NCBI RefSeq assembly: GCF_036588685.1 | Contig: NC_086379.1 | Span: forward strand, 36,828,001 to 36,892,000 | Reading direction: 5' to 3' | Origin: Mytilus trossulus | Lineage: Eukaryota | Length of the DNA: 64,000 nt | In this document: piece after piece, positions 1 through 57,030 of the stretch | How the letters are laid out: the number at the start of each line of letters is the position of its first letter | How positions within the stretch are numbered: position 1 is the first letter of the stretch | Notes under the pieces: generated by a model | Told to the model about the DNA's origin: nothing | Databases searched by the model: none | Seen by the model: only the letters and a program-made list of their open reading frames with translations | Made by a program: the position numbers and the translations under genes

Positions 1-2
1 AA

Positions 3-767
3 TGTATCAGATTTGTTTTTGGTTATTTTTCTATGTCTTAGTATTCTATCGTACAAAATAACCATCTTACCATTAACTTGTTGTCTTATCTGTCTTGCTA
101 ATTCTGCATCAGTAACCATATCAAATTCTAAACAAATGTTTTTGATTGTATAACTTGCAGATGTATCTGTTGATTTAATAACATTGCTATAATTATTAAA
201 TGTAAGTTCATATTCAAGTCTATCACCAAGACCTGCTTGATAAAAAGGCATATGAGTTTCTAATAGTTCAAAATCAAGTGGGATACAAAATCTTGCACCA
301 TATGCAGTTGCAATTGCTTCATCCCCTATGTTTGATGCTTTATCATCCGCACCAACTCTGTGTTTTAACATGTTTGTTTCACCAATTCCTTGGTATGCCA
401 TATTTAAACGTTCAGATGTAGATTTCCATAAATCAACATAACAATGATAAATATCACTATCATCAATTGACATAATTTCATTTCCACTTATACGAATTGT
501 TGTTTTTTTAACTATTGTTCTTCCTATGTTTTGATATATAGTTGCATTGTCGTCTGTAGATGTGAGTTCTATTTCAAATGCCAATCTGGTTGTTCCAGGA
601 ACAATAACATCATTATTGCTTAGATTGGGGAATCTCACTAATAGCTGTTGATTTTGATCAATAGTTGAAGGATTATTTGTTATTGATACACTTTGACGAA
701 TACCTTTCACACCACGGGGTTCTCTTATTTTTCTGTAAGGATTTAATTTGTTTCCGTATGCCGACAT
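3..767 (-). CDS. Major capsid protein (double jelly-roll type) of a Polinton/adintovirus-like element; C-terminus runs off the window
   Basis: Missing from the ORF track because it has no stop in the window. ATG at 767: MSAYGNKLNPYRKIREPRGVKGIRQSVSITNNPSTIDQNQQLLVRFPNLSNNDVIVPGTTRLAFEIEL...RFCIPLDFELLETHMPFYQAGLGDRLEYELTFN...YTIKNICLEFDMV. Alternating beta-strand pattern and IPL..F.....P....L.....EL motif typical of these capsids; adjacent to a penton-like gene. Confidence 0.75.
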   Translation of the reverse strand, partial: MSAYGNKLNPYRKIREPRGVKGIRQSVSITNNPSTIDQNQQLLVRFPNLSNNDVIVPGTTRLAFEIELTSTDDNATIYQNIGRTIVKKTTIRISGNEIMSIDDSDIYHCYVDLWKSTSERLNMAYQGIGETNMLKHRVGADDKASNIGDEAIATAYGARFCIPLDFELLETHMPFYQAGLGDRLEYELTFNNYSNVIKSTDTSASYTIKNICLEFDMVTDAELARQIRQQVNGKMVILYDRILRHRKITKNKSDT

Positions 768-785
768 TTTTAAGGATTAAATTTG

Positions 786-1331
786 TTATAAAAATAATTC
801 AATTACCACTGATACTAGAGTATTGATACATGTAGAATTATCACTCTCACTAACAAACCCTATAATATCTCCAGCCTTAACTTCAAAAGGTATATTAAAG
901 TTATGATAACTGTGTGTGTCACCATTACTTAAACTTATTCCGTAACTATATGTCTTATAATTATTAACAGTTATCATAACATCTATATTATCTGAGTTTG
1001 TTCTTAAACTTACTAAACTAATACCCAATATTTGTCCTGGAAAGTTCATTACATAATAACCACCACCACCATCACCAAAATTAAACTTTTGTCTTGCATG
1101 TATTGAACCATCAATTCCAGCATTTATACTTATTATTTTTCTGTCTGGTTTATTTTTAATATTACTAACTATATTTTCAACATTTAAAACTCTGATGCTT
1201 AGGGCAGCGACACTCCGATGTAAATTTTTATCCTTAGTATCCATTGTTTGAAGCTCACTCTTCATATTTAATATTTCCTTTTTTATTTCCGATGTATCTA
1301 CGTTTTTTTTTTTGACACCAAGTATGCTCAT
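786..1331 (-). CDS. Viral protein with N-terminal coiled coil and C-terminal beta-sandwich; putative fibre/attachment protein
   Basis: 181-aa intact ORF between the penton-like and capsid genes; heptad-like region aa 10-60, beta-rich C-terminus (FEVKAGDIIGFVS...LVSVVIELFL). Function is inferred. Confidence 0.55.
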   Translation of the reverse strand: MSILGVKKKNVDTSEIKKEILNMKSELQTMDTKDKNLHRSVAALSIRVLNVENIVSNIKNKPDRKIISINAGIDGSIHARQKFNFGDGGGGYYVMNFPGQILGISLVSLRTNSDNIDVMITVNNYKTYSYGISLSNGDTHSYHNFNIPFEVKAGDIIGFVSESDNSTCINTLVSVVIELFL

Positions 1332-1344
1332 TTTATTAAATAAA

Positions 1345-1986
1345 TTATATAACTTCTAAAACACAATTAATTGGTAAATGATTAATTATCTTGTTATTAT
1401 TTTCATCTCTTATTTCTAATTTCAATTCTGTTATAACATCATTTACTAAACACTTATATTCCGGATGCTCAAATCTCGCTGTTATAACTTCACCAAACTC
1501 TTTATTCTCGACTGGAATAACAGCCAATAATGTACTTGGCTTACCATCAAGATAATTATGAGAAGTGCTAACTTGTTCCAAATGGATATATAATGATTTA
1601 TGGATAGCAAAATCCACAAATTTGTTTCCATAATGTAATTCATTAGGTTCGAATTTACGTTTATTATTAAATCCTAACATATTTCCCAAACCCTTACTTA
1701 TCTTTAACTCAGTAGTAGTGTTTAATGAAGCGATACCATTTGCTTCATTTACGGATAATACAATATTTTCTTTTTGAAATTCATCCACTATTTGTTGAAA
1801 ACTATAATAACCATTCATAATCCTTTGTTGTTCCTCTCCGGTTTTTGTTATAAACCCATGATAAACATTATACCAACCTATACTGTATCTTATAAATTTC
1901 AAACCAATACGTTTATTTCCATTTCTGTTATTTATGTATTGTTCTAAGTTTATTGTATTATCAATATTTGAAATAGTATGAAACAT
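1345..1986 (-). CDS. Minor capsid (penton-like) protein
   Basis: 213 aa with GYYS..I, LGNMLGF, LYIHLEQV, LLAVIP, HPEYKCL...ITELKLEIRDENN motifs characteristic of Polinton penton proteins. Confidence 0.72.
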   Translation of the reverse strand: MFHTISNIDNTINLEQYINNRNGNKRIGLKFIRYSIGWYNVYHGFITKTGEEQQRIMNGYYSFQQIVDEFQKENIVLSVNEANGIASLNTTTELKISKGLGNMLGFNNKRKFEPNELHYGNKFVDFAIHKSLYIHLEQVSTSHNYLDGKPSTLLAVIPVENKEFGEVITARFEHPEYKCLVNDVITELKLEIRDENNNKIINHLPINCVLEVI

Positions 1987-2001
1987 TTTTAATATAAAAA
2001 A

Positions 2002-3234
2002 ATGATAACAAAAGAATTTAAATATAATCCTAATGTTTCATATAATCCAGGTATTAAATATTCTGAAAAAGATCATCAATTAAAAACAAATCTTGTAAAT
2101 CAAACAATATTTGTAAATCAAAAAGAGAACTTTAAAACATCTTTTCCTGATTTATTTCAAAACTATCAAAACCCATCAATACACACTAACGAACCATGGA
2201 ATGCCTGGATTCATTCTTCATTTGATTGGTGGCAATGTCAGTTAAATTTTGCAGTTTGGTGTGCAAGTACAGGATGTGGTGTTTCTTATAATGATCATAT
2301 ACAAAATACTTCAAATCTTACAAAGTCTTTTTATATGTTTCATTTATATTATTGCATTGCAAGAATTTTAAAAGAACTTAAATCACCTTTACCAACAGAT
2401 TCTTCTTTCTGTTATTACAAGAACCCATATGACAAAGCTGCATATCAGAAATTATGTGATGAATTTAATATTTCTCCAAATACAAATTGGAGACAAAAAC
2501 TAGAATCATCATGTCAAGGATTAGGAAGTTTTGAGCAATATTATAAACCAAGTGGTGAATATAGACAAAATCATAAAAAGGATGGTCCATTCTTTAATAT
2601 TCATGATACAATTTATCATGAAAAAGATATAAGTATGGCTTGGACTACTTTTATTTTAGATAATGGGAATGGATTTACACAATCTGGTGTTGAACGTATT
2701 AATGAAAGTATTAAAATTTATGTATGGGCTTTGTTAGGTGCACAATCACAAACAAAAACAGAAATTTTAAAAGTAGGAACAGGATTTGATGCACAAAAAC
2801 AATTCTTAGCAAATGTACAAGATGTAATAAATAGTCCTATCGATTTACCCACCCAGATATCGAATTATGAAAATGTTTTAAAATATGCAAGAAGTAAAGT
2901 TGATTATGCTTATGGACTTGGTTTATATATGTCTCCCAGTGATATGGTTTTACAAATTGGAAGTATTGTTGGTTATAATAATAAAATTATAATTGCAACA
3001 GAAAATCAAACACTTGGGTTAAATGATGATTTAAATAATAAAAATTTTGATCATGTTGATTTTAAACCAAAAGAACCTGTAAAACCACAAGAACCTATAA
3101 AACATGAAAAGCCTAAAGAACCAAAAATAGATCCAATAAAAAAAATTGAACATGAAGATCATGAAGATAATAAACAAGCAATAATATTTGTAAGTATTGT
3201 AATAGGATTTACAGCACTTTATTTTTTCAAATAA
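2002..3234 (+). CDS. Uncharacterised viral protein with Pro/Lys/Glu stalk and C-terminal transmembrane anchor
   Basis: 410-aa intact ORF with WQCQLNFAVWCASTGCGVS motif, KPKEP-rich linker and hydrophobic tail AIIFVSIVIGFTALYFFK. Starts 15 bp from the divergent penton-like gene. Confidence 0.65.
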   Translation: MITKEFKYNPNVSYNPGIKYSEKDHQLKTNLVNQTIFVNQKENFKTSFPDLFQNYQNPSIHTNEPWNAWIHSSFDWWQCQLNFAVWCASTGCGVSYNDHIQNTSNLTKSFYMFHLYYCIARILKELKSPLPTDSSFCYYKNPYDKAAYQKLCDEFNISPNTNWRQKLESSCQGLGSFEQYYKPSGEYRQNHKKDGPFFNIHDTIYHEKDISMAWTTFILDNGNGFTQSGVERINESIKIYVWALLGAQSQTKTEILKVGTGFDAQKQFLANVQDVINSPIDLPTQISNYENVLKYARSKVDYAYGLGLYMSPSDMVLQIGSIVGYNNKIIIATENQTLGLNDDLNNKNFDHVDFKPKEPVKPQEPIKHEKPKEPKIDPIKKIEHEDHEDNKQAIIFVSIVIGFTALYFFK

Positions 3235-4550
3235 TCTCTAGCAGCAGTAAACAATAAACTAACAACTAAAATAAGCAATGCCCATAAGTTGTTTGCAAAC
3301 CAATTTACTACGTCTTTTGTTGCAGACAATAACCAAGAAACAATAGAACCTATAATACCTGGTAATGCAGCTGCTAATTTTCCTGCAAGAAAAGATAATA
3401 ATTTTCCAAGATTTTTTAATTGTTTTTTTATCCAGTCTTGTACACCACCACCTTTTGATGGAGGAGAAGGAGAAGGAGAAGGAGAACCAGTAAATGCTTC
3501 AACAATAACACCAATAATCATTCCAAAAGCAGTTAAAACACTAACTATTGTTATTCCTTGTTCTCTGAATAATGTTCTTATTCTTTCACCTAATGTTCTG
3601 TCTTCGTTTAAAATTTTATGTATTGTTTGTTTAAATCTATCTAATTGACTACGTAGTTTTTCTCTATTAATATTAATTACTTCTATTCTTGCACTTCTCT
3701 CAGATTCCAACTCTCTCATTCGACTACTTATTCTTTTTATTTGAAATTTTAAATTGTCTTCTTTAGCTTGTTTTAATTTGGCATTTTCTTTTGCTAAGTT
3801 TTTATTTGTTTCATTCAGTTTTGCTAATTCATTTGCAATCTCTTCCTTTACTGATGTCATTGCACTGATTATTCCATCCATCTCTCTTTTTGTCATTTCT
3901 GTTTGTGTTTCATTATCTACTAAAGATGTTCCTTGTTCAATAAATGAAGTTTCTATTTCTTTCACATATGTTTCTGCATTACTTGCTGTTTCTAATAATT
4001 CTTGTCCTTCTTCTTGTGTAGATATTTCTTGTAATGGAATTTCTATATTATCGAGTTCACGAATTGGTGCTTTTATCTTTTTTTGAAAATCTTGAAACAC
4101 TGATCTACCTTCTTTTAAATAATCAGATATTTTATAATCATCTACACCTAAAACATCCCTGACAAAATTAACACCGTATTCTCTTTGAAGAGTGCTAAAT
4201 TTATAAAACTTTAATACTCCTTTTTGGTAATATGTTAATGCAATATCATTACCTTTTTCATCTTTTACATATAAGATTTGTCTTTCATTATGATCTTCCC
4301 TAACAAAAAAACCTACTTCATTACGTGTAGTTTCACCATTTTTTTTATAAAATTGTTTAATCATTTTTTTTGTAGTTTCTTTTTTACGAATTTTAGCATC
4401 ATTTTCTGATAAATCTCTTGTTACTTCAATTTCTTTATTTATATACTTTTGAAACTCTTCATCATTTTGAACAGACGTTTCTTCTTCTTCTTTATCATAA
4501 TCATTATTTTTAAACTCAGGATTATCAAACTCATAACCTCCTTCAGCCAT
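3219..4550 (-). CDS. Viral coiled-coil protein with C-terminal hydrophobic/amphipathic helices (putative membrane-active protein)
   Basis: Likely start MAEGG at 4550 (TAAAATG context; the track uses 4559). Long acidic/coiled-coil region, then GITIVSVLTAFGMIIGVIVEAF, a Ser-Pro linker and amphipathic/TM helices. Confidence 0.65.
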   Translation of the reverse strand: MAEGGYEFDNPEFKNNDYDKEEEETSVQNDEEFQKYINKEIEVTRDLSENDAKIRKKETTKKMIKQFYKKNGETTRNEVGFFVREDHNERQILYVKDEKGNDIALTYYQKGVLKFYKFSTLQREYGVNFVRDVLGVDDYKISDYLKEGRSVFQDFQKKIKAPIRELDNIEIPLQEISTQEEGQELLETASNAETYVKEIETSFIEQGTSLVDNETQTEMTKREMDGIISAMTSVKEEIANELAKLNETNKNLAKENAKLKQAKEDNLKFQIKRISSRMRELESERSARIEVININREKLRSQLDRFKQTIHKILNEDRTLGERIRTLFREQGITIVSVLTAFGMIIGVIVEAFTGSPSPSPSPPSKGGGVQDWIKKQLKNLGKLLSFLAGKLAAALPGIIGSIVSWLLSATKDVVNWFANNLWALLILVVSLLFTAARDYLKK

Positions 4551-4551
4551 T

Positions 4552-4686
4552 TTATTCATCTAAAATATTAGATAATAAACAATAAAAAGAACCTGTTAAA
4601 AACAACTTAAGATAAAAATAATTAAATTTTTTATTTAACATTATTTTTACATTTTTTACTAATTTTTCTTTTGTTTCTTCATCCAT
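4552..4686 (-). CDS. Small 44-aa viral ORF, possible membrane peptide
   Basis: MDEETKEKLVKNVKIMLNKKFNYFYLKLFLTGSFYCLLSNILDE*, with TAAATG start context. Its TAA is 1 nt from the next ATG; below the ORF-track cut-off. Confidence 0.5.
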   Translation of the reverse strand: MDEETKEKLVKNVKIMLNKKFNYFYLKLFLTGSFYCLLSNILDE

Positions 4687-4776
4687 TTATTTAATTAAAA
4701 ATTGATTCATAGTTTGGTGGATTTCCCACGTTCACATAGTGGTGATTTTCAACTAAAGTTATTTTGTTTATAAAAA

Positions 4777-5367
4777 TTATAGATTTTCCATTTTTTTTTT
4801 TATTTCATTTCTTACTCTATTTTCTGTTTCTTCTATAATTTTTCTTCTTTCATCTTCTGGTAAACTTTTTGAAGTTTTTAAATTTGCCATTTTTAAATTT
4901 TTTTTCATCTCATTAAATTTTTCTAGTTCTTCTAAAATAAGTTTAAATTCTTCTTCACTTATTTTATTGTCAGTTAAAGATCTAGAAATTAAATCTTTAA
5001 TACTATTTAATTTACACTCTGCTAAAGTTTTTATTTCATAATGTTTTTTAGCTTTTGAAGTAAGCTTTCTTCTTATTAATTTTATTACACCCCCAACACT
5101 ACCGCATGCGACTGCTGTAATCTGTAATGGTAATAAAATAGGAATAGCAATACCTATACCTGCAGAAATAACTGATGCTGAAATTAAAGTTGTATCTATT
5201 CCATCTGTAAAGTTTACTCCTCTTTTATATTTTTTATATAAAGAATTTCTTTTGTCTCTTTCATTTTTTAAAGAATTTTCTATTTCTGAAATTTTTTGTA
5301 ATCTATAGTTTTGTCCATCTTCTATAGGTAATTCTGGATATAAATTAGGAGCTGTAGGTTGTTTCAT
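4777..5367 (-). CDS. Viral coiled-coil protein with central hydrophobic hairpin
   Basis: 196-aa intact ORF with PTAP-NLYPEL at the N-terminus; hydrophobic segment LISASVISAGIGIAIPILLPLQITAVACGSVGGVI flanked by Lys/Glu coiled coils. Confidence 0.65.
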   Translation of the reverse strand: MKQPTAPNLYPELPIEDGQNYRLQKISEIENSLKNERDKRNSLYKKYKRGVNFTDGIDTTLISASVISAGIGIAIPILLPLQITAVACGSVGGVIKLIRRKLTSKAKKHYEIKTLAECKLNSIKDLISRSLTDNKISEEEFKLILEELEKFNEMKKNLKMANLKTSKSLPEDERRKIIEETENRVRNEIKKKMENL

Positions 5368-5696
5368 TTTTTTAAGTAAAAATTGATTTTTTTATTTTTC
5401 TCTTAAATCCCACAGAATTCTTTCTCTGTCAGTTCTCCCGGGTTTTTTTATTTATTTTTTTTTGGAATTTTTTAGTTGTTTTTTGGGTGTTTTTATTGTT
5501 GGTTTTTTTCCCAAAGTAAAAAAAAAATTTTTTTGGGAGTAAGAAAATTTGGTGTTTTTTGGGGTGTTTTTTTGCTTTTTTATGAAAATTTAGGGCTCTT
5601 TTACTTGAAATGAGGGTAATTTTTTTGGGGGTCAAATTTTTTTTTTTTTTTGGAGGGGGTGCGCTGGAGTCGTTCAAGTGATGATTGGCTACATAC

Positions 5697-8600
5697 CTTG
5701 AGGTTGAGGTGGGTATCCAGCTTCTGAAATGTATAAATATAAAACAAATTATACTTATTCTATTTATAGTACATACATACTTGAAGCTTAAGTTGCTCCT
5801 TCTTAGTATACCTTTTATAAAGCTTACTGACAATGAGGTCAGGCCCGTAGCCAGGAATTTCCAAGGTGGGGTTCGTTGGACTCACAAACTCGACTTTAAC
5901 AGTCACAATTCGAACAGAACATTGACTTTAACAGTGCTTCTTTGTGTTCAAGGGGAGGTTTGTTCGACCCCCCTGGCTACGGGTATGATGAAAGTCTGGC
6001 TAGGGTTCACAGAATAGAAATAAACTAGAGGCTCTAAAGAGCCTGCGTCGCTCACCTTGGTATATGTCAATTAAACAAAGGACGCAGACAGTTCATGACA
6101 AAATTGTGTTTAGGTCATTGTGATGTGTTTGTACATCTTACTTTACTGAAGATTCTTGCTGCTTACAATTATCTCTATCTATAATGAACTTGTCCGTGTA
6201 GTTTCAGTGGAAAATGTTAGTAAAAATTTACAAATTTTATGAAAATTGTTAAAAATTGATTATAAAGGACAATAACTACTTAGGGGGTCAATTGACCATT
6301 TTGGTCATTTTGACTTATTTTTGAGTCTTAAATTGCTGTACATTATTGCTGTTTACAGTTTATCTCTATCTATAATAATATTCAAGATAATAACCCAAAA
6401 CATATATTCCTTAAAATATTTTCCTTAAAATTACCAATTTAGGGGCAGCAACCTAACAATGAGTTGTCCGATTCATCTAAAAATTTTAGGGCAGATAGAT
6501 CTTAACCAGATAAACAATTTTCAGATTTGCTCTAAATGCTTTGGTTTTTGAGTTTTAAGCCAATAACTGCATTTACCCCTATGTTCTATTTTTAGCCATA
6601 ACACGGCTAATTTGGTTGGTTGGCCCGGTCACAAAACACACTTTTAAACTAGATACACCAATGATGATTGTGGCCAAGTTTGGATTAATTTGGCCCGGTA
6701 GTTTCAGAGGAGAAGATTTTTGTAAAAGATCATGGAGATTTACGAAAAATGGTTAAAAATTGACAATAAAGGGCAATAAATCCTAAAGGGGTCAACTGAC
6801 CATTTTGGTCCTGTTGACTTATTTGTAAATCTTACTTTGCTGAACATTTTTGCTGTTTACAGTTTATCTCTATCCATAATAATATGCAAGATAATAACCA
6901 AAAACAGTAAAATTTCCTTAAAATTACCAATTTAGGGGCAGCAACCCAACAATGGGTTGTCTGATTCATCTGAAAATTTCAGGGCAGATAGATCTTGACC
7001 TGATAAACAATTTTACGCGATGTCAGATTTGCTATAAATGCTTTGGTTTTTGTGTTATAAGCCAAAAACTGCATTTTACCCATATGTTCTATTTTTAGCC
7101 ATGGCGGCCATGTTTTTTTATGAAATCATATGGGAATTAAAACACAAACTTTATTTTAGATACCCTAGGAATCAATCAGATGAAGTTTGGTTTGAATTGG
7201 TTCAGTAGTTTCAGAGAAGATTTTTGTAAAAGTTAACGCTGGATGACGGACGACAGACGCCAAGTGATGAGAAAAGCTCACTTGGCCTTTTAGGCCAGGT
7301 GAGCTAAAAACAATAAGTGCAAAATAAATGGCTAAAAAAATAAAGAAAAGAGAATTATGGTCAAATTGAATAAAGAAAAGAGAATTAAAATGGTCATAAA
7401 AATTAAATAATAAAGAAATGAAGGCCCACTTTTATAATCAGAACATCTCTTTTATGCAGATCAACATGATCAATGACCATTCTTAATTAGAATACCTGGT
7501 TCAGATAATCAGATTGGACTTATTGTAAATTGTATCTATTATCTGATTATACAGAACATTTATCACTTTTTTCTGTTATAAAGGTAAAATCAATAACTTT
7601 ATGCAGTAAACATATTATTTTCACCTGTTTGATAAGCAATAAGTAAGTGTACATTGTATACTGTATAATGAATAATGGAACATAGTTAATTTCAACCGTC
7701 ACTAACAACAAACACATCATGTGACATGTGCAATCCACATTAGTTATATATAATACTTAAAAATTTAATTAATTTATCTTAAAATAGATACAATCAGCAA
7801 CATGTATTTTCATTTACACTTCCTACATGTATGTACATAGCTAGCCTTTAAAATTGTTCATGTAATTTATCCCAAAAAAATATCCTAAGTACAGGAACTA
7901 CTTTCGGTAATTCATTACTCATAATTATTATATTTTAAAGTGTTATATTAATTACCACCAGGAAATATATATAAAAGGCTATTCTTTGAACTTAGAATTA
8001 TTTTTATAATTATGGAATTTGCATAATTTCTAGTGCTTGAAATTTTTAATAAATTTCATGTTTATCATGTTTATTTGGTATCATAATGTTTTACGCAGTT
8101 CATACCACTTTCCTTAAAATGCATTTTGTATAGATTATGTTGTGCGTGGCACAGTACATTCTATTGAAAATGTGCTCTATTGAAAATGTGCTATCTTCTT
8201 TGTAACAGAAAGTGTTGTGCACAGCACAGAACATTAAAGTACAGAATAAACATGGAATTTATTAAAAAATCTCAAGTACAAGAAATTATGCAAATTCCAT
8301 AGTTAAAAATAATTTCAAGTTCAACTATTAGCCTTTTATATATTTTAAGGTCAAGGAACAGTAAATGGGCTATGTCGCAGATTTTGCTAAAAAATTGCAT
8401 ACAACCTTGGCTCGTTGAACTTCAACTGAAAATTGAAAAAATAATACCTTTATCTCTTTTATTTTCTGAAAAGTTGCAGATTGATTTCTCTTAATATGGG
8501 TGAACATTTGTATAGAAAGCACCTATAAGCGAAAAACCTTCTAAAATTTGTCTTTAAATCGTCATACCTCTAATTCTACTCCATAGATTTTTCTTAAATA

Positions 8601-12500: not shown

Positions 12501-14071
12501 ATGACAAAAAAGATATACATCCAGAAATAAATATGTGCTTATTTGTATCTCTTTAAATGTACATTTTGTACCCCTCATAAAAGGGATAGTCATTACATTG
12601 AGAGCTAGAGGTTACCCGTCATTTGAGGGGTAGTGATAAATATAAACGGCTAATCGTCACAAAAAAATATTACTGTTCTGTGCAGCTGTGTGCCAAAAAT
12701 ACAGCACTAAAGCGAGGAACAGAACAGAAAGTTGGATTCGATAGGCCATGCATTTGCAGGAGGAAGTCCTGCAAAAGCCATCATGATCTGCTATCCAAGA
12801 TGCACAAAACTAATTTTTCAAATCGTTTAATGAAAGCTTACAACTAGCAGTGATAGCAGAAGAATGGTTCAATTCCATTAAATGTGAATACAATAATAAA
12901 CCCTGTTGAAAATATTAAAAAAAAATCAACCAGTTGCAAACTTTTTTTCAAAACACCCACATTACCTTAGTGAAAAAAGGGGAACACTGAAGAAGCATAG
13001 TAACGTCAATGCATATTTGCACTGTGTGAGTTCAAACACAAATACTGAACAAACTAACAAGATGACAGATTTTAGACTACAGTAGGATTCTACATGTAAA
13101 TACTTAGTCCAAATAATTATGACGTCTTAAAAGGCTATTCAAAGAAAAAAATTATAATAGCCTTTCAAGACGTCATAATATTTGAACTACTAAATACTAT
13201 GCCAGTCATGGGTTCCAAAAAACTACACTGGGAGCTTAATCGACTATAAAGGGATCTCCTGTAGTTGGTGATCGCAATACTGGTATACCAGTATTGTGCA
13301 CAATACTGGTATAAAAATTTTGTACCAGTATTGTATTCCAGTATTGTGGTTTTTTTTTGTTTTTTTTGTAAATAAACAATACATAGGTAATTAATCTTTT
13401 ATTAAATGTGTCACATAATGCAATTAACATATGACATGACTATCATAAGGTATTTGAATAATTAGACATATAAGCACTAATTTAATTATAAACATAATGA
13501 TATTAAATACTGATATATATCATATATGATAATGTACTTTTAGCACTAATAATAAAATAAAAGCACGATGTATAAGTATAACAATTGTTAAATTCACATG
13601 TTTAAATGGTGATACAATGATGTGTACTCTGTCTAAAACAGACATCTGCTTAGGAAAAGGAGTGCAATACCAGCCATATCAAAAGTGGTTAATGGGGAGA
13701 TGAGAAAAAAACATAAATTATTAATATATGATTAACAATTGTTTGAATAATATAAGTTAATTACAATAATCTTTTGAAAATATTTGTATCTCTTTGATCT
13801 TAATTAGGGTATAAAGAACATGCTTATATTTAATGAGCTGTTGATAAATTTCAATTATCCTCTTTAATCTTTTTGAGTTCAGTTAATCCCTCTTTAACAT
13901 GTTTAAGGTTTTAGGTGAAATCACGTGACTATAGTGTAAACAAGCAATTTGTCAGGTCGAAAAAATAACTTAGTTTTTGTTGGATTTAAAAGACTTTTTA
14001 CGATATAAATTATAGTCAGTAGTTACAAAAGACTTTAATCTTCGATAATACGTGATTATTAGTGTGCTTGG

Positions 14072-14971
14072 TTGGATATTTGTTCAGATAACTTAAATAT
14101 GGATCAATATATGAACTTTCCTATGTGTACAAATGGCGGAAGTGGTCACTTCGTTAACAACTCAATGATGAATCCAGGCCATGTACCTGTAAGTACTTAT
14201 AACTATTCAGTATCATCTTGGTCTGAAAGAAAACGTCAGCTGTCAGATCAAATGTCAAATTATATTAATGAACCTGGAACAGAGCACAAAAAATCAAAAT
14301 GTGATTCTAGCGTATCGAGTGCACCCATGTTTGAAGATACAAATAGAGTTGAGGCATTGATTTTACAGTTATCATCAAACTTTTCAAATATGAGTGAAAA
14401 ATTAGATAAGAGAATTAGCGAATTGGAAACAAATTCTGTTATGATTGACAATAAAATGAAAGAAAAACTAATTGAAGTTAAAACAGAAGTTAAACATGAA
14501 CTTGATGGTATGAAATCCAAAATAGAAAACTTAGAAAAACAGGTATCTGAGAATAAAATTAACAGTACATATAAAGATTCGTTGCGCAACAAATTCATTA
14601 TCAAGAACCTTGAATATGATGATCGTGAAAAAACTGACCCAGAACTGACAAAACATAAAGTACAAGGTTTATTAAAAGATTGTTTAGGGCTCAGCAACGT
14701 TAAGCTAAAAACTGTCTCCAGAAAAGAAAGTAGAGGAAAGTATCATGGCTTGATTATTGTGGAAACTGACACATTTGATAGTAAAAGGGATATCATGAAG
14801 AGCAAGGTTAAACTAAAAAACAATAGACTTTATGCTAATGTCTACATTGAGAACGACATGTCGCCAGAAAGGAGGAACTTTCAAAGTACCGTTCCAACCG
14901 TTCTCAAAGAAATGGGCAAGGAAAAGAATTTCAAGTTTGTAGGAAATCAACTGTTACCAAAAGAAACATAG
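14072..14971 (+). CDS. LINE ORF1 (coiled coil plus RRM-like region)
   Basis: 299 aa; heptad region, then NKFIIKNL and K.KLK.....NVYIEND motifs typical of non-LTR ORF1; directly upstream of an AP endonuclease. The true start may be the ATG near 14099. Confidence 0.7.
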   Translation: MDICSDNLNMDQYMNFPMCTNGGSGHFVNNSMMNPGHVPVSTYNYSVSSWSERKRQLSDQMSNYINEPGTEHKKSKCDSSVSSAPMFEDTNRVEALILQLSSNFSNMSEKLDKRISELETNSVMIDNKMKEKLIEVKTEVKHELDGMKSKIENLEKQVSENKINSTYKDSLRNKFIIKNLEYDDREKTDPELTKHKVQGLLKDCLGLSNVKLKTVSRKESRGKYHGLIIVETDTFDSKRDIMKSKVKLKNNRLYANVYIENDMSPERRNFQSTVPTVLKEMGKEKNFKFVGNQLLPKET

Positions 14972-14974
14972 GAC

Positions 14975-17380
14975 ATACTGCGGCTTGGTGTATGGAATTG
15001 CAGGGGATGGTCCACCAAAACGAATGACAACTCAATATTCCGCGAAAAACTGCTAAACTATTCGAAATGTGATATTTTATGTATATGTGAAACATTTTTA
15101 CGTGTAGATGAGTTTTTAACTGTCATTACTGTTGATGGTTTTAGATTTTATGGTAGTAATAGGAAATATATACACAAAAAAGCAACGCGAGGGTCAGCAG
15201 GGGTTGGTGCTTTCGTGAAAGAAGAATTATTGAATTCATTTAATATTGGTATTATAGATGATACTACGGAAGGAATAATGTGGTTGGAATTTTCAGATAA
15301 GTTTTGCAAAAAATGCTTCTACGTAGTGGCATGTTATTTACCCCCTGCTGACACATGTAGGCCAGTGGATGCCGACGTTTATTTCCAAACTCTTTTAAAC
15401 CAAATATATTCATACCAACATAAAGGAAAAATATTTATATGCGGTGACATGAACGCATGTGTAGGTGCTAATTCTGATTTTATAGAGGGCGTCGATTTAG
15501 TGAAACCACGAAATGTTATAGATCATGTAGAAAATCACCATGGAGATGTTTTCGTGAATTTTTTAAGTGATGTCATTTTTGGAATGTTAAATGGACGATA
15601 TAATGATAATGAATTTACATGTATATCAACCAACGGTAAATCAGTAGTAGATTACATATGTGTTCCCTATGAGGATATGGAATTTATTAGTGATTTCAAA
15701 ATAGTATCGATGTTGGAAATTTCTAATGATATTACATATATTCCTGATAGTTTACCGGACCACTCATTGCTTTATTGTGATTATAAATTATCTTTCGATT
15801 TAAACCCGAATTCACAGCATGCACCGATCAGTAATACACGTATAAAATACAATTTTGGAGCGATTCCTAGTGACTTCTTATTGAATCGGGAAATTCAGGT
15901 GAAATTAATTTAAACAATTGAGAAAATTGAAATTATATAGAAATATCAAATGACGTGCAAAATGCATACGATGAATTTGAGGATTTAGTTAAATGTGAAA
16001 TCAATAACAAATTACCGACTTATACCAATGCTACTGGTCATGATAAACGTAAGAAAATATGTTATAAACCGTATTGGAATGAAACTCTTTCAGCCCAATG
16101 GAAGACCGTATGCAAATCCGAGAAGAAATGGTTATGTTTCACCGGTCCGAACTGTACAAAGCGTAAACTGAAGGAAGAATATTGTGTAGAAAGAAAAACT
16201 TTTGATCGCTTAAACAGAAAATGTTTAAAAGACAATTTCAGAGTCAAGAGCGACAGAAACTTGAAGACAAACTTGATGAGACTAATCAGCGTGACTTTTG
16301 GAAGACAATAGGAAATTTAGGCATCGCTAGTAACCGTAAACGTTGTATACCATTAGCTATAGTGGACGAGGATGGAAAAGAGGCAACGGATAAAAATGTT
16401 GTTCTTAACAAATGGAAAAACGATTTTCAGACTTTATTCCATCAAAATGGTAACAGTGACTCGGACCTTGATGAATCAACATTTGATACTGAAGCCGATG
16501 TTTCGCCGTTAAACGAACCTATCTCCAGGGAGGAAGTTTTGCAGGCAGTATTACGTGCATTTGGGGCACTAAATCGTTTAGTGCTATTTCAGCTGTACAA
16601 AACAGAGCCTGCAAATATTTTCTCTCCGTTGGAAAACTGACCTCGAATGTAGCTACTCGTGGTGATATGGGATGGACATCTTATCACACAAAACAACGAA
16701 TACATTACTGTAGGCTATTGTGTAGACTTCTTCGCACCGAACATACTAGAACATCATATAAAATATTGAAATGGACATCTAGGAAGAAAAAGGGCCGGGC
16801 TTTTGAAGTTGACAAAATTGTAAATAGTTTAAACATTAGAGATATTGTATACGACTTGTCTTATTCCATAAAAACTGTTATGAGAACTGTTATTGAAAAA
16901 TTGGTAGAACTCGACAATACAGAGTGGCACAGAGAACTTTTCAATGATAGGCGCAATATACAAAATGGTAATAAATCACGCACATATAGACTGTTTAAAA
17001 ACAATGTAAAAACTGAACCGTATGTTTGCCTAAATATGGCTAGGCCGGAAAGACGAACTATGGCTCTGTTTCGGTCCGGTGCACTACCCCTTGCCTACGA
17101 GATCGGCAGGTACTCCAGGCCGCCTATTCCGGTAGAAGAAAGACTCTGTGTGTTTTGTAACCTTGATAATGTAGAAAATGAAAAACACTTTCTTCTTGAA
17201 TGTGAACTTTATAGTGACTTACGGTATAATTTATTTTCCAAATGCTCTAAATATGTTGATATCTTTAGCAATCTTGTTATGGACGATAAATTTATACAAA
17301 TCATGAACTGTTCGAGTATCCAACACTATTTGTGTAAAATATTACATAAGTTTTTTATTCGAAGAAAATTATTTTCATAG
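14975..17380 (+). pseudogene. LINE ORF2: AP endonuclease, linker and C-terminal Zn finger; RT core deleted, with a stop and frameshifts
   Basis: WNCRGW, ICETF, CYLPP, CGDMNA, SVVDY and PDH endonuclease motifs; stop at 15913; EPISREEV joined directly to IWGTKSFSAISAVQNRACK; C-terminal EIGRY...CVFC...ENEKHFLLEC. Confidence 0.85.
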
Positions 17381-33511: not shown

Positions 33512-34983
33512 CGTTTTTTTTTAATTGTTATATTTGCTGATTTTTTAACAAGGTGGAATACATGTATCTATTATGATAATAGACTTGCTATGAGTAGTTT
33601 ATTATATTTCTTATAGGGATATAATATTTGAAATCAATCATACACGAATACAAATAGTATCCTAGCTACTACTCTTGTTTTTGATATCCCAGATGACACT
33701 CCTGTAAATTAAAAAAAGGAGATTTAGACTTCAATGGAGCTGAAATTTTATCAGCTAATTTTAATAACAATTAGTATGTCGATGGTGTCCTTATCATATC
33801 TTCTATGCCCAAAATCAGCCTTTTGTCTTTATTTCATTAAATATGTATATGAGACTTTATTGAGACATAATAACATTGTAAAGATTGTAGTATGATTTAA
33901 ATGTCCTGATTATATGCATTTTGCTTTAAGATGAGCCATTTTAAATTAGTTTAAACAATTTCTATGTCCAGACCTTTAAGTCCAGTTTCCTTCATAGCGT
34001 TGTAACACCCACCTAGAACTATCTTTGTGTCTTGTGTACTATTTTGTCTGTTTTTCTTTTTTCTTTTCTAGCCAAGGCGTTGTCCGTTTATTTTCAAATC
34101 TTTGATTTTTGAATGTCCCATTTTTGTCTTTAGTCCCTCTTCTTTAATGTGTACATTGACAATTCTTTTATCATGTTTACATCATACTGAATCTACTGTA
34201 CAAGTAATATAGGAAACAAGTTGTTGATGAGATTAAAAGAACCACAAGATAAAAAAAATAGTTTGAATTAATGATTACTTCAGACTTCAGTGGAAGTATA
34301 AGATTTTAAGGCTGATTGGGATGAGAAAGGAAATATAGAATCCCACTATTCTTACTAAGTCAAGTCTATATTTCCTAGGTGAAGTTTCTTATATTTTTAA
34401 ATTTAAAAAAAAAGACTAAATAAAAACCTAGTATGTAACATCATTGCTACCACTTGTGTAGCTCTATCAATTATCATGTACATATCATAATTGATAACAA
34501 ATGTTTAAAAAGTAAAATCACAAAAATACTGAACTTAAAGGAAAATCAATTCGGAAAGTCCATAAAATTCATGTTTCTTTTGGTGAAATTTTCCTACAGA
34601 AAAAAGGCAACAGAAAGTTAAAGCTTTAAAATTAATAGCATTGCAGAACACCCTGTTCAAAGTTCGTTGAATTTTACCGCTGTAAAGCAACCTCGGTCTC
34701 TCGCTACAGATCATGAAAAAAGATTGGGATTTTTATTTTATTGTTGATTCAATTATTAAAGCGATGACCAGATGTTTCCTATAATAAAAATCACTTTAGG
34801 TTTCGCGGGTCAACACTTCCCCATTTAAAATATATCCTACATTGTAATGCGTACTAATCCCATTAGCTATGTTTATAGTGTTAAACTTTCTTTTCGAAGC
34901 CAGTAGACTGGATCATGACGTTATAACTGTATCGATTTGAAAAACTATTTATATCACAATTACCAACTGTAATTAATTGACAG

Positions 34984-36637
34984 CGAGTTTGGAGCAGAAA
35001 GATGAAAATCAGACAGTTAACGAAAAGAAACCAAATGTCGACATTTTTGTATTGTATGATGAAAGCGATGAGTTTACCACACGTAAAATCTTGGATACAT
35101 TATTCCATGCTGAAAATATTTCATATCGATGTCTGGAAAGGCACGGAGATCCTGGCAACACGACTTTTGATGACTTCAAAAATTTGATTCTGGAATGTAA
35201 AAAAGTATTATTTGTAATTTCAAAAGAGTTCAATAACAATGATGAAAAGATCTTTATGGTCAAAATGGCTTTAGATATGATCAATCATGACGTCAGTAGA
35301 CTCATTACTCTTTTATTGAATGTAGAAATGGCTGGCACCAAACATTTGTGGTGTCTTAATACAACTTTGAAACTCTCAATCCGACAACAAGATTGGAAAA
35401 GGCAACTTTTACAAGCGATTAAAATTATTCCTGTGGACTATTGCTCTGTATTAGAAACCGGAAACGTTTCAGATTATCTTCTCTTGAGAGGATTAACATT
35501 TGTTAACTTGAGGTGGAATGTTTATGGCGTTCTAATCGTTGCCGAAAATCGCTATTTAAAAGTAGAGTTGTTAGAATATTCAAAACACCTAGAGCAACAC
35601 CATGCTATGAACACGTTAAAAGCATGTGAGCAGTGCGGATTTCTTTCTAAGGTCGATACTACAATCAATTTATCATTTCGAAATGACTTTTCAAGCGATC
35701 AGATATTGGATATTAAAAACGATTTACTTCAGTTGTGCGTTAGTCTATTAAACACACGAATTCTAATGGAAACCCAGACAGAATGGTTGATAGTCTGTTC
35801 CATAACTGGACTTTATGGAAAACAACAACAAAACTATGTTTCAAATTTCTTTGCTGAGGTAAAGTCTGCAATAGAAACAAATTACACAACTGAGGCTAGT
35901 AATAAAGGTCAACTGCATCTCCCAGAATCTCCCAGAATATGCTGACGAGGAAAAACGAAGAGAGTCATTTGAAGGTGTCTGGCCAAGCGAAAATATTCCA
36001 CCCGCTGAAGTCATGGCAAAATCTGGATTTGTTTTTATGATGAAACCTGATGTTGCTCAGTGTTTTTCATGTGGTTATAACCAATGTTTATGGGAACCCG
36101 ACAAAGACCCCCTCATTGTACACGCACAAGTGACATCATCGTGTAATTTTGAAAGAGAAGATGTACCACCCCAAAAGCTTCCTTCACAAAGAATAAAATG
36201 TATTACCAAAAACGATGCATTTTCATCAGAAGACAGTAGGATGATTTCACTACGAAATTTAAAAATCTCCGAGTCAGACCTTTATATTTTAGAGTCTGAA
36301 GAAGACTTTACTCGCCATCAACTGGCAAAGGCGGGATTTTATAGGCTACAATATGGTTAAATGTTTTTCGTGTGGAATATCTGTAAGTTACAATGGAATA
36401 GAGACCGAATCAGACATTTGGAACATGCATGCTACCTTATCACCTAATTGCGAACATCTGTTACAACAGAAAGGTTCTAAATTTATCAATGCCATTAACA
36501 GTATTCAAAAAAGAAATATGGAGCCAACAATCGTCACTTTGTTTCTATTACCATTAAAGGGGAAACAAAGTTTCGTATGGCCAGGTTATGTGTTTCTACC
36601 TGGGGAACGATACAAACTTCAACCGATTGAATTATGA
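34984..36637 (+). pseudogene. TIR-domain / two-BIR-domain (IAP-like) gene, one large exon with two frameshifts
   Basis: TIR-like DIFVLYDESD...CLERHGDPG...ECKKVLFVISKEF; BIR1 YADEEKRRESF..WP...MAKSGF...CFSC-x16-H-x6-C; BIR2 LAKAGFY...VKCFSC-x18-H-x6-C. A 10-bp duplication at 35917-35936 and an indel near 36350 break the frame. Likely acceptor TTGACAG ends at 34983; start exon not identified. Confidence 0.8.
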
Positions 36638-40600: not shown

Positions 40601-41248
40601 TTATGTTTATGTTTATATTTATATTTATATTTATGATTATATTTATGTTTATGTTTATGATTATGTTTATGTTTATATGTATGCTTATGTTTATATTTAT
40701 GTTTATGTTTATATTTATGTTTATGTTTATGATTATGTTTATGTTTATATTTATGTTTATGTTTATGATTATGTTTATGTTTATATTTATGTTTATGTTT
40801 ATGATTATGTTTATGTTTATATGTATGCTTATGTTTATATTTATGTTTATGTTTATGTTTATGTTTATATTTATGTCTAAGTTTATATTTTATCTATGTT
40901 TATGTTTATGTTTATGTTTATGTTTATATTTATGTTTATGATTATGTTTATGTTTATATTTTATCTATGTTTATGTTTATGTTTATATTTATGTTTATGT
41001 TTATGTTTATATTTATGCTTATGTTTATATTTATGTTTATGTTTATTTTATGTTTATGTGTATGTTTATGTTTATATTTATATTTATGTTTATATTTATG
41101 TTTATATTTATATTTATATTTATATTTATGTTTATGTTTATGTTTATGTTTATGTTTTTACTATTCTGTTGCTGTCTCATTGATTTATCATCAGCATATC
41201 TGTATACACATATTCACCTTGATCATAAGGTTGTTGTTGAACTGCCAT
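37652..41248 (-). CDS. LITAF: LITAF-like gene 3, complete (coding exons 41248-41218, 39781-39583, 37760-37652)
   Basis: GT-AG, phase-compatible: [30 protein letters not shown]...[73 protein letters not shown]. Confidence 0.9.
38125..38790 (+). mobile_element. 5'-truncated Penelope-like retroelement fragment (RT C-terminal region plus 3' tail)
   Basis: [37 protein letters not shown]...[13 protein letters not shown] motif; 3' tail sequence shared with copies at ~43660-43930 and ~46660-46850. Confidence 0.7.
40550..41157. repeat. (ATGTTT)n hexanucleotide microsatellite in an intron of LITAF gene 3
   Basis: About 100 units of ATGTTT with ATATTT, ATGATT and ATGCTT variants. Confidence 0.95.
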
Positions 41249-42261
41249 ACCTCTCTAAATGTCCTGTTAAAATACAATGTGTGAATTTTATAAAAAGGAG
41301 TTAAGTGGTCTTTTTTTTATTCCCTCTTCTTTCGTTTCGCTGTCAATAATCCAGACTTCTAGCACTTTCTAGAGAATATTACAATTGGACTAAATAATAA
41401 TATTGACTGGTTTTAAAAAATTAAGGCATGGATTTATACAGCTGGGTCAAATTTTACAAGCAATTAGAGGTAAAGGAATATTTCATTTTCTCTTGATTGA
41501 TCAGACGACTCCTTAAAGGAATTATTGTCCTTTTATGAATATTTTGGACCAGTTGTGGCGTTACTTTTTTTCTATTATCTTGAATACAATAAATGTATAA
41601 TAGACATATATAGAAACTGTAAACAACATACACACAACCAGCAAACATATCAAAAATAAAAAAAATCAATGATTGCCCTTTAATGAGTATTTTGACCAAT
41701 TTAAGCGGTAATTTTGTCTATCATCTTAGAAACAATGATAGATATGCAGAAATATCAAACACCTTACATAATCAGCAAAAGTAATATAAGATATACAAAA
41801 ATGTCAACAACACTGAACTAATCAATTCACTCCCTCTGGAGGAGTTATTGCACTTAAAATAACGATTTTCACCAGTATAGGCATTTCCGTCTTTTATCTT
41901 AAAAATAATAGAAATAAGAAAAGAAAAGTTCAATGGTGTATCTCTGTGCTTTTTAAGAATCTATGTATATAACTAAGGCAGCCAATTTTAGCATTTCATA
42001 TTGGGGCAGCTGAGGGTGAAACAAACATTTTTTTTTCTTAGTGTCAAAAACAAATTATGTTTTTCTCTCCCAAAACTGGAAACAAACTTTTTTTCCAAAA
42101 AAATCAATAGCCCCCCCCCCCCCCCCCCCGAAAATCAAATGGTTGTTGTCTAAGAGTTTAGAGCGCGAAGAACTGCATACAAATATCGCAAAATTTATAA
42201 TAATTATCCGAGATGTAGTAAGTTAAATATCAGGGAAATAGTAATACAAATGTATAGAATA

Positions 42262-56496: not shown

Positions 56497-57030
56497 CAAA
56501 GGGTTAGTCTCAACACTGAGTGTAAAAGGGTTAGAATCAACACTAAGTATAAAAGGGTTAATCTCAACACTAAGTATAAAAGGGTTAGTCTCAACACTTA
56601 GTGTAAAAGGGTTAGTCTCAACACTAAGTGTAAAAGGGTAAGTCTCAACACTAAGTATAAAAGGGTTAGTCTCAACACTAAGTGAAAAAGGGTTAGTCTC
56701 AACACTTAGTGTAAAAGGGTTAGTCTCAACACTAAGCGTAAAAGGGTTAGTCTCAACACTAAGTGTAAAAGGGTTAGTCTCAACACTTAGTGTAAAAGGG
56801 TTAGTCTCAACACTAACTGTAAAAGGGTTAGTCTCAACACTAAGTGTAAAAGGGTAAGTCTCAACGCTAAGTGTAAAAGGGTTAGTCTCAACACTAAGTG
56901 TAAAAGGGTTAGTCTCAACACTTAAGTATAAAAGGGTTAGTCTCAACACTCAGTGTAAAAGGGTTAGTATAAACACTTAGTGTAAAGCCTTTAAGGGTTA
57001 GTCTCAACACTAAGTATAAAAGGGTTACTC
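56497..57030. repeat. 27-bp minisatellite
   Basis: Unit AAAGGGTTAGTCTCAACACTAAGTGTA, about 19 copies. Confidence 0.92.

What the first reader, a model, noticed from the sequence alone, without database searches (positions are those of the whole stretch)
1..5400. Intact Polinton/adintovirus-like virion module with several membrane-type proteins
Seen: seven tightly packed ORFs with no disabling lesions, in a window where LINEs are decayed. Beside the capsid and penton-like genes are three or four proteins with TM or amphipathic helices. Inference: a recent, possibly still mobilisable endogenous virus whose particle may involve a membrane or membrane-penetration machinery.
Basis: partly seen in the sequence, partly recalled or inferred. 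Interest (0 to 1): 0.7.

Follow-up and report, generated by a model that had tools for sequence, protein, structure and literature searches.

The report
Mussel polinton-like virus with budding motifs
This stretch, likely from a mussel genome, holds six unbroken genes that likely form the particle-building end of an integrated polinton-like DNA virus; one of its three predicted membrane proteins carries conserved motifs predicted to recruit the cell's budding (ESCRT) machinery, so such viruses would likely leave cells wrapped in membrane.

Summary
Mostly confirmed, with corrections. Six long intact ORFs (not seven) fill 1-5367; three (not four) look membrane-bound. The 3-767 gene is a double-jelly-roll capsid protein (model of a 99%-identical full-length copy hits iridovirus, PBCV-1 and mavirus capsids). 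1345-1986 is a penton by motif only. Named relatives put the host in Mytilus, with many near-identical copies. It is not a classical adintovirus. Its capsid is of the Nematostella Polinton-3 type, and relatives read end to end carry an A32 ATPase, pPolB, more small membrane proteins, often an integrase, and no adenain protease. The gene set is already catalogued, without discussion, as Meld6842 and LC027333 in the supplement of Buck et al. 2024. New here: (1) the SLATT-like two-helix protein (4777-5367) begins with tandem PTAP and LYPxL late-domain motifs. YPx[L/I] is kept in 9 of 11 related proteins, both motifs in 5 of 11, including a protease-bearing adintovirus. (2) The 410-aa tail-anchored protein folds confidently but matches no structure searched. 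(3) The fibre head shows excess amino-acid change (38:3). Most likely an endogenous virus that exits non-lytically through ESCRT; binding and particles are untested.

The parts
3..767 (-). A: major capsid protein, double jelly roll; first 255 of about 421 aa, cut by the window edge; Nematostella Polinton-3 type
   Evidence: 99.2% identical to the full-length MCP of L001; its model (pLDDT 61.9) hits SGIV MCP E 7.8e-16 TM 0.51, PBCV-1 Vp54 and mavirus MCP; about 50 of 140 N-terminal positions identical to P3_NV by eye
786..1331 (-). B: likely short vertex fibre (helical stalk 1-60, predicted beta head 61-181), head hypervariable
   Evidence: Head aligns with the C-terminal domain of L006 55-900 (tblastn E 5.7e-7), which carries phage tail-fibre repeats (PHROG 1640, E 1.5e-7); head 38 non-synonymous to 3 synonymous differences against L001. 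No PDB match. Fibre role inferred.
1345..1986 (-). C: likely penton (minor capsid protein)
   Evidence: Motifs match the Polinton PX alignment of Krupovic 2014 by eye along its length; Atlas feature score 0.98 to arthropod and Preplasmiviricota clusters; look-alike labelled Penton in Meld6842. Not modelled; no Pfam or PDB sequence hit.
2002..3234 (+). D: 410-aa protein, compact domain of unmatched fold (1-345), Pro/Lys linker, C-terminal membrane anchor; 'Titinmem' of Buck et al.
   Evidence: AF2 pLDDT 87.3, pTM 0.82; best Foldseek E 0.35 in BFVD, best VIA Z 3.4 among 48,161 PDB chains; C-terminal hydrophobic helix in 68 of 73 aligned relatives, N-terminal signal-like stretch in 0 of 73; C87, C92, H99, H114 kept in 72-73 of 73; dN/dS 0.17 against L001
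3219..4559 (-). E: 446-aa acidic N-terminus and long predicted coiled coil, then hydrophobic helix, proline hinge, amphipathic helix and two more hydrophobic helices; 'Cah' of Buck et al.; candidate membrane-penetration protein
   Evidence: Hydropathy; residues 331-446 are 93-99% identical in 9 named Mytilus copies while 1-120 are 71-87%; 1897 relatives among 8000 scored; only weak tape-measure profile hits (E 0.002). Role inferred.
4777..5367 (-). F: 196-aa SLATT-like two-helix membrane hairpin with N-terminal PTAP (4-7) and LYPEL (9-13) late-domain motifs
   Evidence: look-alikes labelled Slatt / SLATT family 5 in the Buck supplement; no SLATT Pfam hit of its own
5368..5679 (.). Likely terminal region of the element (part of an inverted repeat); the exact end and target duplication are not fixed
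   Evidence: Contig depth in 5377-5600 is 1.7 to 4.5 times that of the bin before it in the three DNA-type runs; one contig of X12 follows the window to 5679 and goes on with about 211 unlike letters (tables 2 and 8; direction read by me). Weak.

Best explanation
The six intact genes are likely the virion-gene end of a recently multiplied, integrated polinton-like virus of Mytilus mussels that likely lacks the maturation protease and would likely leave cells without lysis, wrapped in host membrane, by recruiting ESCRT through the late-domain motifs of its two-helix protein F. Shown: double-jelly-roll capsid; three hydrophobic-helix proteins; the two motifs and their conservation; ATPase and pPolB in close relatives; no protease in fully read relatives; many near-identical copies. 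Inferred: pPolB copies the excised linear genome from its termini; A and C build an icosahedral shell with B at the vertices; the A32 ATPase fills it without proteolytic maturation; F sits in an endosomal or plasma membrane with both ends in the cytosol and binds TSG101 (PTAP) and ALIX (LYPxL) to bud capsids; D is displayed on that membrane; E breaches or fuses the target membrane at entry; an rve integrase (in cis in some relatives, in trans for others) inserts new copies. Odds: identity of the element about 0.95; F binds ESCRT about 0.65; membrane-wrapped exit about 0.5.
For: Fold. Clade: P3_NV: MCP+, ATPase+, protease-; Meld6842 0 of 13 and LC027333 0 of 16 labelled genes are Adenain; L003, 13,235 bp with inverted repeats, all gaps accounted for. 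Left arm by proxy: L002 (91.5% DNA identity over window 1-785) continues with A32 ATPase E 7e-13 and pPolB E 5e-16; gene model P0001 joins a 99%-identical MCP to the same ATPase. Copies: 42 proteins in D's 90% cluster, 14 of the 15 listed named M. edulis or M. galloprovincialis; dS 0.008-0.07 against L001. Motifs: both in window F, in 9 of 9 Mytilus cluster members fetched and in L003 F at 48% identity; YPx[L/I] in 9 of 11 distinct F-type proteins, both motifs in 5 of 11, with order and spacing changed; 0 of 15 other Slatt-labelled excerpts show either (by eye); both motifs in 12 of 200,000 shuffles of F; both in 0 of 120 D, 0 of 150 C and 0 of 43 A relatives. P[S/T]AP binds TSG101 and YPX(n)L binds ALIX (PMC10159163 passages). 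Fibre head 38:3 non-synonymous to synonymous against 14:20 for A+C+D (Fisher p 3e-6 for whole B), as expected of a receptor-binding protein of a virus that still infects.
Against: No binding, particle or expression is shown. The motifs were found after scanning six proteins for five patterns. 2 of 11 F-type proteins have neither motif (LC027333, Adinto13074) and 6 of 11 lack P[T/S]AP; the 8 proteins from the Buck supplement were sorted into the F type by eye from excerpts. The same motifs occur in a protease- and PLA2-bearing alpha adintovirus (BK012049), so they do not explain the protease loss. D has no signal peptide, so its domain would face the cytosol or the particle interior, not the outside, which fits an inner membrane or a matrix role as well. 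The excess change in the fibre head rests on one main pair (pN 0.133 vs pS 0.041, p 0.036, boundary chosen by me) and could be recombination between diverged heads. The MCP model is only moderately confident (pLDDT 61.9). The closest long relative (L002) shows no integrase in 9,110 bp, though it ends inside pPolB.
Confidence: 0.5

Rival explanations
1. Naked virus with lytic or pore-assisted exit: F is a SLATT-type pore (viroporin or holin-like); its motifs only sort it to endosomes, turn it over, or tie up ESCRT membrane repair; E is an internal membrane-lytic protein like adenovirus VI.
For: Barth et al. 2026 read polisuvirus SLATT and holin-like proteins as pores for lytic egress or abortive infection (section read). 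L003 F hits a PADLOC LeoBC profile (E 8.6e-5). Slatt proteins without motifs are common in these viruses. E has an amphipathic helix.
Against: Two different late-domain motifs kept together, in either order, across distant lineages is the pattern of budding adaptors. The module has at least six predicted membrane or hydrophobic proteins in L003 and L006, more than lysis needs.
Confidence: 0.25
2. Inner-membrane virion, as in PRD1, iridoviruses or PBCV-1: the membrane proteins build a lipid vesicle inside the capsid, and ESCRT, if used, seals it.
For: Best structural matches of the MCP are iridovirus and chlorovirus capsids, whose virions have an inner membrane (recalled). No protease, as in tectiviruses (Yutin 2015 passages). 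D is tail-anchored without a signal peptide. E resembles tape-measure profiles weakly.
Against: MCP matches are 9-13% identical and mavirus scores almost as well, so they do not tell membrane status. A 13-17 kb genome implies a small capsid with little room (inference).
Confidence: 0.15
3. No extracellular phase now: the element spreads inside the germ line like a transposon, or only with a helper giant virus; the intact virion genes reflect youth, not use.
For: No relative in the IMG/VR set in 4 scans. Many Mytilus gene models of D and E are shorter than full length. L003 has no integrase and would need help. Several PLVs depend on giant viruses (Bellas 2026).
Against: Purifying selection on D (dN/dS 0.17, p 6e-6) and excess change in the fibre head; relatives with the same genes in gastropod, bivalve and shark records are easier to explain by infection. 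Helper dependence would not exclude ESCRT exit.
Confidence: 0.08
4. Host genes, or a domesticated relic.
For: NCBI lists the relatives as Mytilus 'unnamed' or 'hypothetical' proteins.
Against: Intronless, 94.5% coding, capsid fold, the same gene set in inverted-repeat-bounded elements.
Confidence: 0.02

Closest known systems
Meld6842 (BK066732, 13,310 bp) and refMeld LC027333 (abalone), Buck et al. 2024, PMC11071296 supplement
   Same: All six window genes have counterparts: Hexon, Penton, Titinmem (D), Cah (E), Slatt (F), Glycot (position of B); relatives also share PacK, Fus, Ayleven, Lardeb, Nispumem; no Adenain among 13 and 16 labelled genes (matched by shared motifs and by eye).
   Different: In the window the B-C-D-E block is inverted and F is turned relative to the MCP (F, E, D, C, B, MCP against F, B, C, D, E, MCP). 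B is a short fibre. The paper's main text does not mention these elements, Titinmem, Slatt or budding.
Polinton-3_NV of Nematostella vectensis (Krupovic 2014, PMC4028283; Yutin 2015, PMC4642659)
   Same: MCP about 36% identical over the first 140 residues by eye; ATPase present, protease absent; described as a chimera of a PLV-type capsid with Polinton pPolB and integrase.
   Different: No penton was detected in P3_NV in 2014, whereas C is a penton look-alike; its membrane genes were not described in what I read and I could not compare them.
Animal-derived Aquintovirus-related elements of Octocorallia, Hydrozoa and Bivalvia (Bellas and Sommaruga 2026, 10.64898/2026.06.19.733378)
   Same: The only animal Polintons or PLVs outside the main Maverick groups, bivalves included; probably this clade.
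   Different: One sentence on ATPase genes; I could not test whether the ATPase of this element falls there (their supplement is closed).
Adintoviruses / Mavericks (Polintoviricetes; Starrett 2021, PMC8502044)
   Same: pPolB, A32 ATPase, hexon, penton, inverted repeats, often rve integrase, membrane-active accessory genes; an alpha adintovirus (BK012049) has an F-type Slatt with LYPDL and PSAP.
   Different: No adenain; capsid not of the adintovirus type (an adintovirus entry ranks 12th at 12% identity in BFVD); no PLA2X or GasderminX label on the relatives.
Bluetongue virus NS3 and hepatitis E virus ORF3 (recalled, not from a call; absent from the two reviews searched)
   Same: Works like: small membrane proteins with cytosolic late domains that let a non-enveloped capsid leave by ESCRT budding. 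Hepatitis A virus (YPXnL, ALIX) and vaccinia F13L are in the review passages read.
   Different: No homology claimed or tested; RNA viruses; binding proven there, only predicted here.

Membership tests
Polinton-like supergroup (Polisuviricotina) | Double-jelly-roll major capsid protein | tested here: met
   (model of the 99%-identical full-length copy in L001)
Polinton-like supergroup (Polisuviricotina) | Single-jelly-roll penton | tested here: inconclusive
   Motif match by eye and Atlas features; no model; no Pfam or PDB sequence hit
Polinton-like supergroup (Polisuviricotina) | A32-type packaging ATPase | tested here: met
   In close relatives, not in the window: L002 PF04665 E 7.3e-13; P0001 model
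Polintons / Mavericks (operational definition) | Protein-primed PolB | tested here: met
   In relatives: L002 PF03175 E 4.6e-16, L003 E 6.4e-19
Polintons / Mavericks (operational definition) | rve integrase | tested here: inconclusive
   Present in 3 of 17 loci (L006, L008, L014; most loci are too short to tell), absent from near-complete L003, not seen in partial L002; this copy's left arm is not available
Polintons / Mavericks (operational definition) | Terminal inverted repeats and 6-bp target duplication | tested here: inconclusive
   Inverted repeats in L003; in the window only one end, limit not fixed
Adintoviruses (Starrett 2021; Buck 2024) | Adenain maturation protease | tested here: not met
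   Tested on relatives only: none in L003, Meld6842 or LC027333; P3_NV scored '-'
Adintoviruses (Starrett 2021; Buck 2024) | Hexon recognisable by BLASTp against reference adintovirus hexons | tested here: inconclusive
   No reference hexons to BLAST; no named adintovirus among 43 longer relatives; Buck et al. file two relatives as 'Meld', and one carrier of an F look-alike as uAdinto14666
P3_NV / Meld6842-type protease-less polintons | P3_NV-like MCP with Titinmem, Cah, Slatt, penton and no adenain | tested here: met
   sequence matches by motif search and by eye
Aquintoviricetes (PLV class) | MCP or ATPase phylogeny inside the class | not testable with these tools
   No reference set available; literature places P3_NV-type capsids with PLVs
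SLATT 2TM domain | Profile match and two-helix hairpin (F) | tested here: inconclusive
   Two helices; no SLATT Pfam hit; look-alikes labelled Slatt by Buck et al.
ESCRT late-domain adaptors | Cytosolic P[S/T]AP and YPX(n)L motifs | tested here: met
   Motifs present and conserved; cytosolic position inferred
ESCRT late-domain adaptors | Binding to TSG101 or ALIX and dependence of release on VPS4 | not testable with these tools
   Needs experiments; no animal ESCRT protein was at hand for a complex prediction

The most novel reading that the evidence does not exclude
A widespread lineage of animal polinton-like viruses (molluscs, sea anemone, a shark record) makes membrane-wrapped particles without any maturation protease: a SLATT-derived adaptor buds capsids through ESCRT, a tail-anchored protein of a new fold lines the membrane, and a coiled-coil protein with a C-terminal helical cluster is a new kind of membrane-penetration or fusion protein. 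Late-domain SLATT proteins in classical adintoviruses would make ESCRT budding a general exit route of animal polintons, and would explain why their particles have been missed in preparations made for naked capsids.
Probability: 0.35. Interest if true: 0.85.

Novelty: new member of a known kind. Interest (0 to 1): 0.55.

Why it matters
Virions of animal Maverick-Polintons have not been observed, according to Bellas and Sommaruga 2026, and how they would leave a cell is open. A conserved pair of late-domain motifs gives a cheap direct test (peptide binding, vesicle release) and says where to look for particles: in detergent-sensitive, vesicle-like fractions of mussel haemolymph. Mussels carry many intact copies, so they are a practical source. 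Protein D is a deeply conserved viral membrane protein with a confident model and no structural match in the libraries searched. The element itself is a new member of a catalogued but undescribed clade, which limits the novelty.

Tried and rejected
No own genome is held, so the left arm and insertion site were not read. IMG/VR scans with A, the MCP alignment, the D alignment and the F alignment found no relative. GTDB gave one 2.8-kb contig in a bacterial MAG, likely misbinned. PDB sequence searches with A, B, C, D, E, F or their profiles gave nothing under E 0.06. Pfam and PHROG hits of B, D, E, F (GT-D, GP41, tape measure) are below cut-off and were dropped. The Atlas gave no usable hit for D. 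No match for D's model in BFVD or PDB does not prove a new fold; the model is at the size limit and was not split. The idea that D is a papain-like stand-in for adenain (conserved Gln, Cys, His) found no support in those searches. Seawater and RNA runs: the ratio of element depth to the neighbouring host repeat is of one order in all four runs (about 1:1500, 1:1800, 1:3500, 1:750, my arithmetic), so they give no sign of free virus or of specific transcription; contig depth is not copy number. Low cover at 5601-5824 was not used (repeat skipped at 5618-5664). Motif searches in the Starrett 2021 supplement found nothing, but the file is cut. Earlier scan findings: none. My note 5 says the gene order equals Meld6842; that was wrong, the B-E block is inverted. 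No complex prediction was run.
Full report
OBSERVATION. Window 1-5367 holds six long ORFs, A-F, covering 94.5% of 1-5400; shuffles give at most one such frame. A is cut by the window edge; the others are as long as their relatives. I found no seventh gene. Hydrophobic helices occur in D (one, C-terminal), E (three plus an amphipathic helix) and F (two). The one LINE I checked is in pieces.

HOST AND COPIES. No genome is held. The closest named relatives of D, E and F are Mytilus edulis, M. galloprovincialis and M. californianus proteins, so the host is likely a Mytilus mussel. D's 90% cluster has 42 members; 14 of 15 listed are named Mytilus, 4 of those 14 are full length. A metagenome copy, L001, is 96.8% identical over 4,274 bases. 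Twenty of 24 listed sequencing runs hold the stretch or part of it; in the four laid, contigs cover the element, several of them without any difference over 400-775 bases. This fits a recent multi-copy endogenous element. It does not show present mobility.

CAPSID. The full-length MCP of L001 (99.2% identical over the 255 residues in the window) folds with pLDDT 61.9 and matches the MCPs of Singapore grouper iridovirus (E 7.8e-16, TM 0.51), PBCV-1 and mavirus; in BFVD the top rows are mostly giant-virus MCPs and an adintovirus entry ranks 12th. By eye, about 50 of the first 140 residues are identical to Polinton-3 of Nematostella in Figure S3 of Krupovic 2014. That element is scored MCP+, ATPase+, protease-, and Yutin 2015 placed two sea-anemone Polintons among PLV capsids as chimeras. 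C was not modelled; it matches the PX penton alignment by motif and scores 0.98 by Atlas features, with no Pfam (0 of 76 relatives) or PDB hit. B's C-terminal domain is related to that of a tail-fibre-repeat protein in L006, and the gene at B's position in L003 has T7 tail-fibre repeats (E 1e-11), so B is likely a fibre.

THE MISSING ARM, BY PROXY. Sixteen metagenome loci encode relatives of A. L002 (91.5% DNA identity over window 1-785) goes on with an A32 ATPase, four small genes shared with the other loci, a Cys-rich ORF, a membrane-anchored second P-loop protein and pPolB. L003 (13,235 bp) starts with the Maverick-type GTAGTAG end (motif recalled) and has inverted repeats; its genes leave no gap over 618 bases and include neither protease nor integrase. 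An rve integrase follows the small genes in L006, L008 and L014 (3 of 17 loci, most too short to tell), and in a whale-shark gene model. In the window the B-C-D-E block is inverted relative to L003, L006 and L015.

ALREADY CATALOGUED. Motif searches in the supplement of Buck et al. 2024 hit Meld6842 (BK066732) and refMeld LC027333 (abalone), which carry Hexon, Penton, Titinmem (D), Cah (E), Slatt (F), PacK, integrase and PolB; none of 13 and none of 16 labelled genes is Adenain. The main text has no occurrence of these names, of Titinmem, Slatt or budding. Bellas and Sommaruga 2026 note bivalve, hydrozoan and octocoral ATPases near Aquintoviruses as the only animal elements outside the Maverick groups. 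So the element is a new member of a known, barely described clade.

WHAT IS NEW. (1) F begins with PTAP and LYPEL. P[S/T]AP binds TSG101 and YPX(n)L binds ALIX in budding viruses. Both are kept in 9 of 9 Mytilus cluster members fetched and in L003 F at 48% identity; the broken relative in L015 keeps LYPSL only. Among 8 distinct F-type Slatt proteins visible in the Buck supplement, sorted by eye from excerpts, 6 have YPx[L/I] and 3 also have P[S/T]AP, there in the reverse order (Meld6842, BK012049, uAdinto14918); LC027333 and Adinto13074 have neither. With my three lineages that is 9 of 11 and 5 of 11. None of 15 other Slatt-labelled excerpts shows either motif; 2 of 9 'SLOG-associating' places were not displayed and the file is cut. 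Both motifs arise in 12 of 200,000 shuffles of F and in 0 of 313 relatives of A, C and D; the 10 of 120 E relatives that have both are F-E fused gene models. BK012049 and Adinto6405 have Adenain, so the motifs reach classical adintoviruses. (2) D folds with pLDDT 87 and matches nothing in BFVD (best E 0.35) or among 48,161 PDB chains (best Z 3.4); it is tail-anchored in 68 of 73 relatives and keeps C87, C92, H99, H114. (3) Against L001, A, C and D differ by 14 non-synonymous and 20 synonymous changes, B by 40 and 4 (p 3e-6); the head alone has pN 0.133 against pS 0.041 (p 0.036). E's membrane end is nearly invariant (1:1 in 116 codons) while its N-terminal two thirds vary. One pair, so suggestive only.

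MECHANISM. Most likely: replication by pPolB, capsid of A and C with fibre B, packaging by the ATPase without proteolysis, ESCRT budding through F, entry with E, integration by rve. The capsid, the motifs and the gene content of relatives are shown; every functional step is inferred. The nearest functional parallels are bluetongue NS3 and hepatitis E ORF3 (recalled). Rivals are a pore-forming F with naked particles (the reading of SLATT proteins in Barth 2026), an inner membrane, or no extracellular phase.

NOT IN PRINT, AS FAR AS SEARCHED. 'polinto' + 'ESCRT' gave 2 papers, both on other subjects by title and abstract start; none of the 10 listed for 'polinton, late domain, PTAP, ESCRT' (3 of 4 terms) contains 'polinton'; 'LC027333' gave 0. 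The library lacks most subscription journals; three Buck supplement files were too large, others are cut, and bioRxiv supplements are closed, so a description there cannot be excluded.

PAPERS SEEN. PMC8502044: parts 1-3 of 6 and two supplement searches. PMC11071296: abstract, sections 16 and 25, a term search, supplement list and supplement searches. 10.64898/2026.10.13.758929: parts 1-3 of 5. 10.64898/2026.06.19.733378: parts 1-3 of 5. PMC4028283: parts 1-2 of 4, supplements 1, 4 and part 1 of 3. PMC4642659: passages and section 7. PMC11131425, 10.1101/2025.04.19.649669, PMC10159163, PMC7923801: passages. PMC7805220: term search with no occurrence. Others: search listings only.

VERDICT. Real, recent, endogenous polinton-like virus of a catalogued protease-less clade; new member of a known kind, with an apparently unreported and testable clue to how animal polintons leave cells. 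Interest 0.55.

Noticed in passing
window 34977-36360 (+): A TIR-domain frame (322 aa, Pfam E 4e-4) overlaps a BIR/IAP frame (161 aa, E 2.6e-16) by 71 bases in another frame: a possible TIR-BIR immune gene or a broken retrocopy.
   Followed up: partly
window 14063-17380 (+): LINE with an ORF1-like frame (302 aa), an endonuclease frame (313 aa) and three further short frames without a Pfam hit.
   Followed up: partly
window 4718-4727: A kappa-B-like site (consensus recalled) in the spacer about 160 bases upstream of E; could tie expression to immune signalling.
   Followed up: no
L003 1-13235: Near-complete, inverted-repeat-bounded relative with pPolB and all virion genes but no integrase and no protease: a free-living or integrase-borrowing form.
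   Followed up: partly
L002 4819-5901 and 5894-9109: A second, membrane-anchored A32-like P-loop protein (E 2e-7), and an endonuclease VII domain inside pPolB (E 1e-8) in the closest long relative.
   Followed up: no
L002 3265-3501, L003 8188-8427, L006 7292-7537, L008 4221-4457: A conserved 78-81-aa hydrophobic ORF between the small membrane genes, like 'Nispumem' of Meld6842.
   Followed up: partly
P0015 (Rhincodon typus gene model, named by its source): One 1421-aa model strings together MCP (62% identical), ATPase, two small genes and rve integrase: the clade appears in a shark assembly.
   Followed up: partly
L017 1-2759; P0078, P0080, P0081, P0084, P0327: Genes of this family sit in bacterial MAGs (Burkholderiales, Thiodiazotropha and another clam symbiont), likely host or virus DNA misbinned.
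   Followed up: no
window 2002-3234, residues 87, 92, 99, 114: Two cysteines and two histidines nearly invariant in 73 relatives of D: a possible metal site.
   Followed up: no
window 56398-56949 (-): 183-aa frame with a DUF6470 hit (E 4.6e-7, no single stretch passing); probably low complexity.
   Followed up: no
window 40435-41304 and 50450-52515: Clusters of overlapping open frames on both strands with strong skew, likely simple tandem repeats.
   Followed up: no
window about 6010-7200: Very high-copy host repeat with internal duplications next to the element.
   Followed up: no
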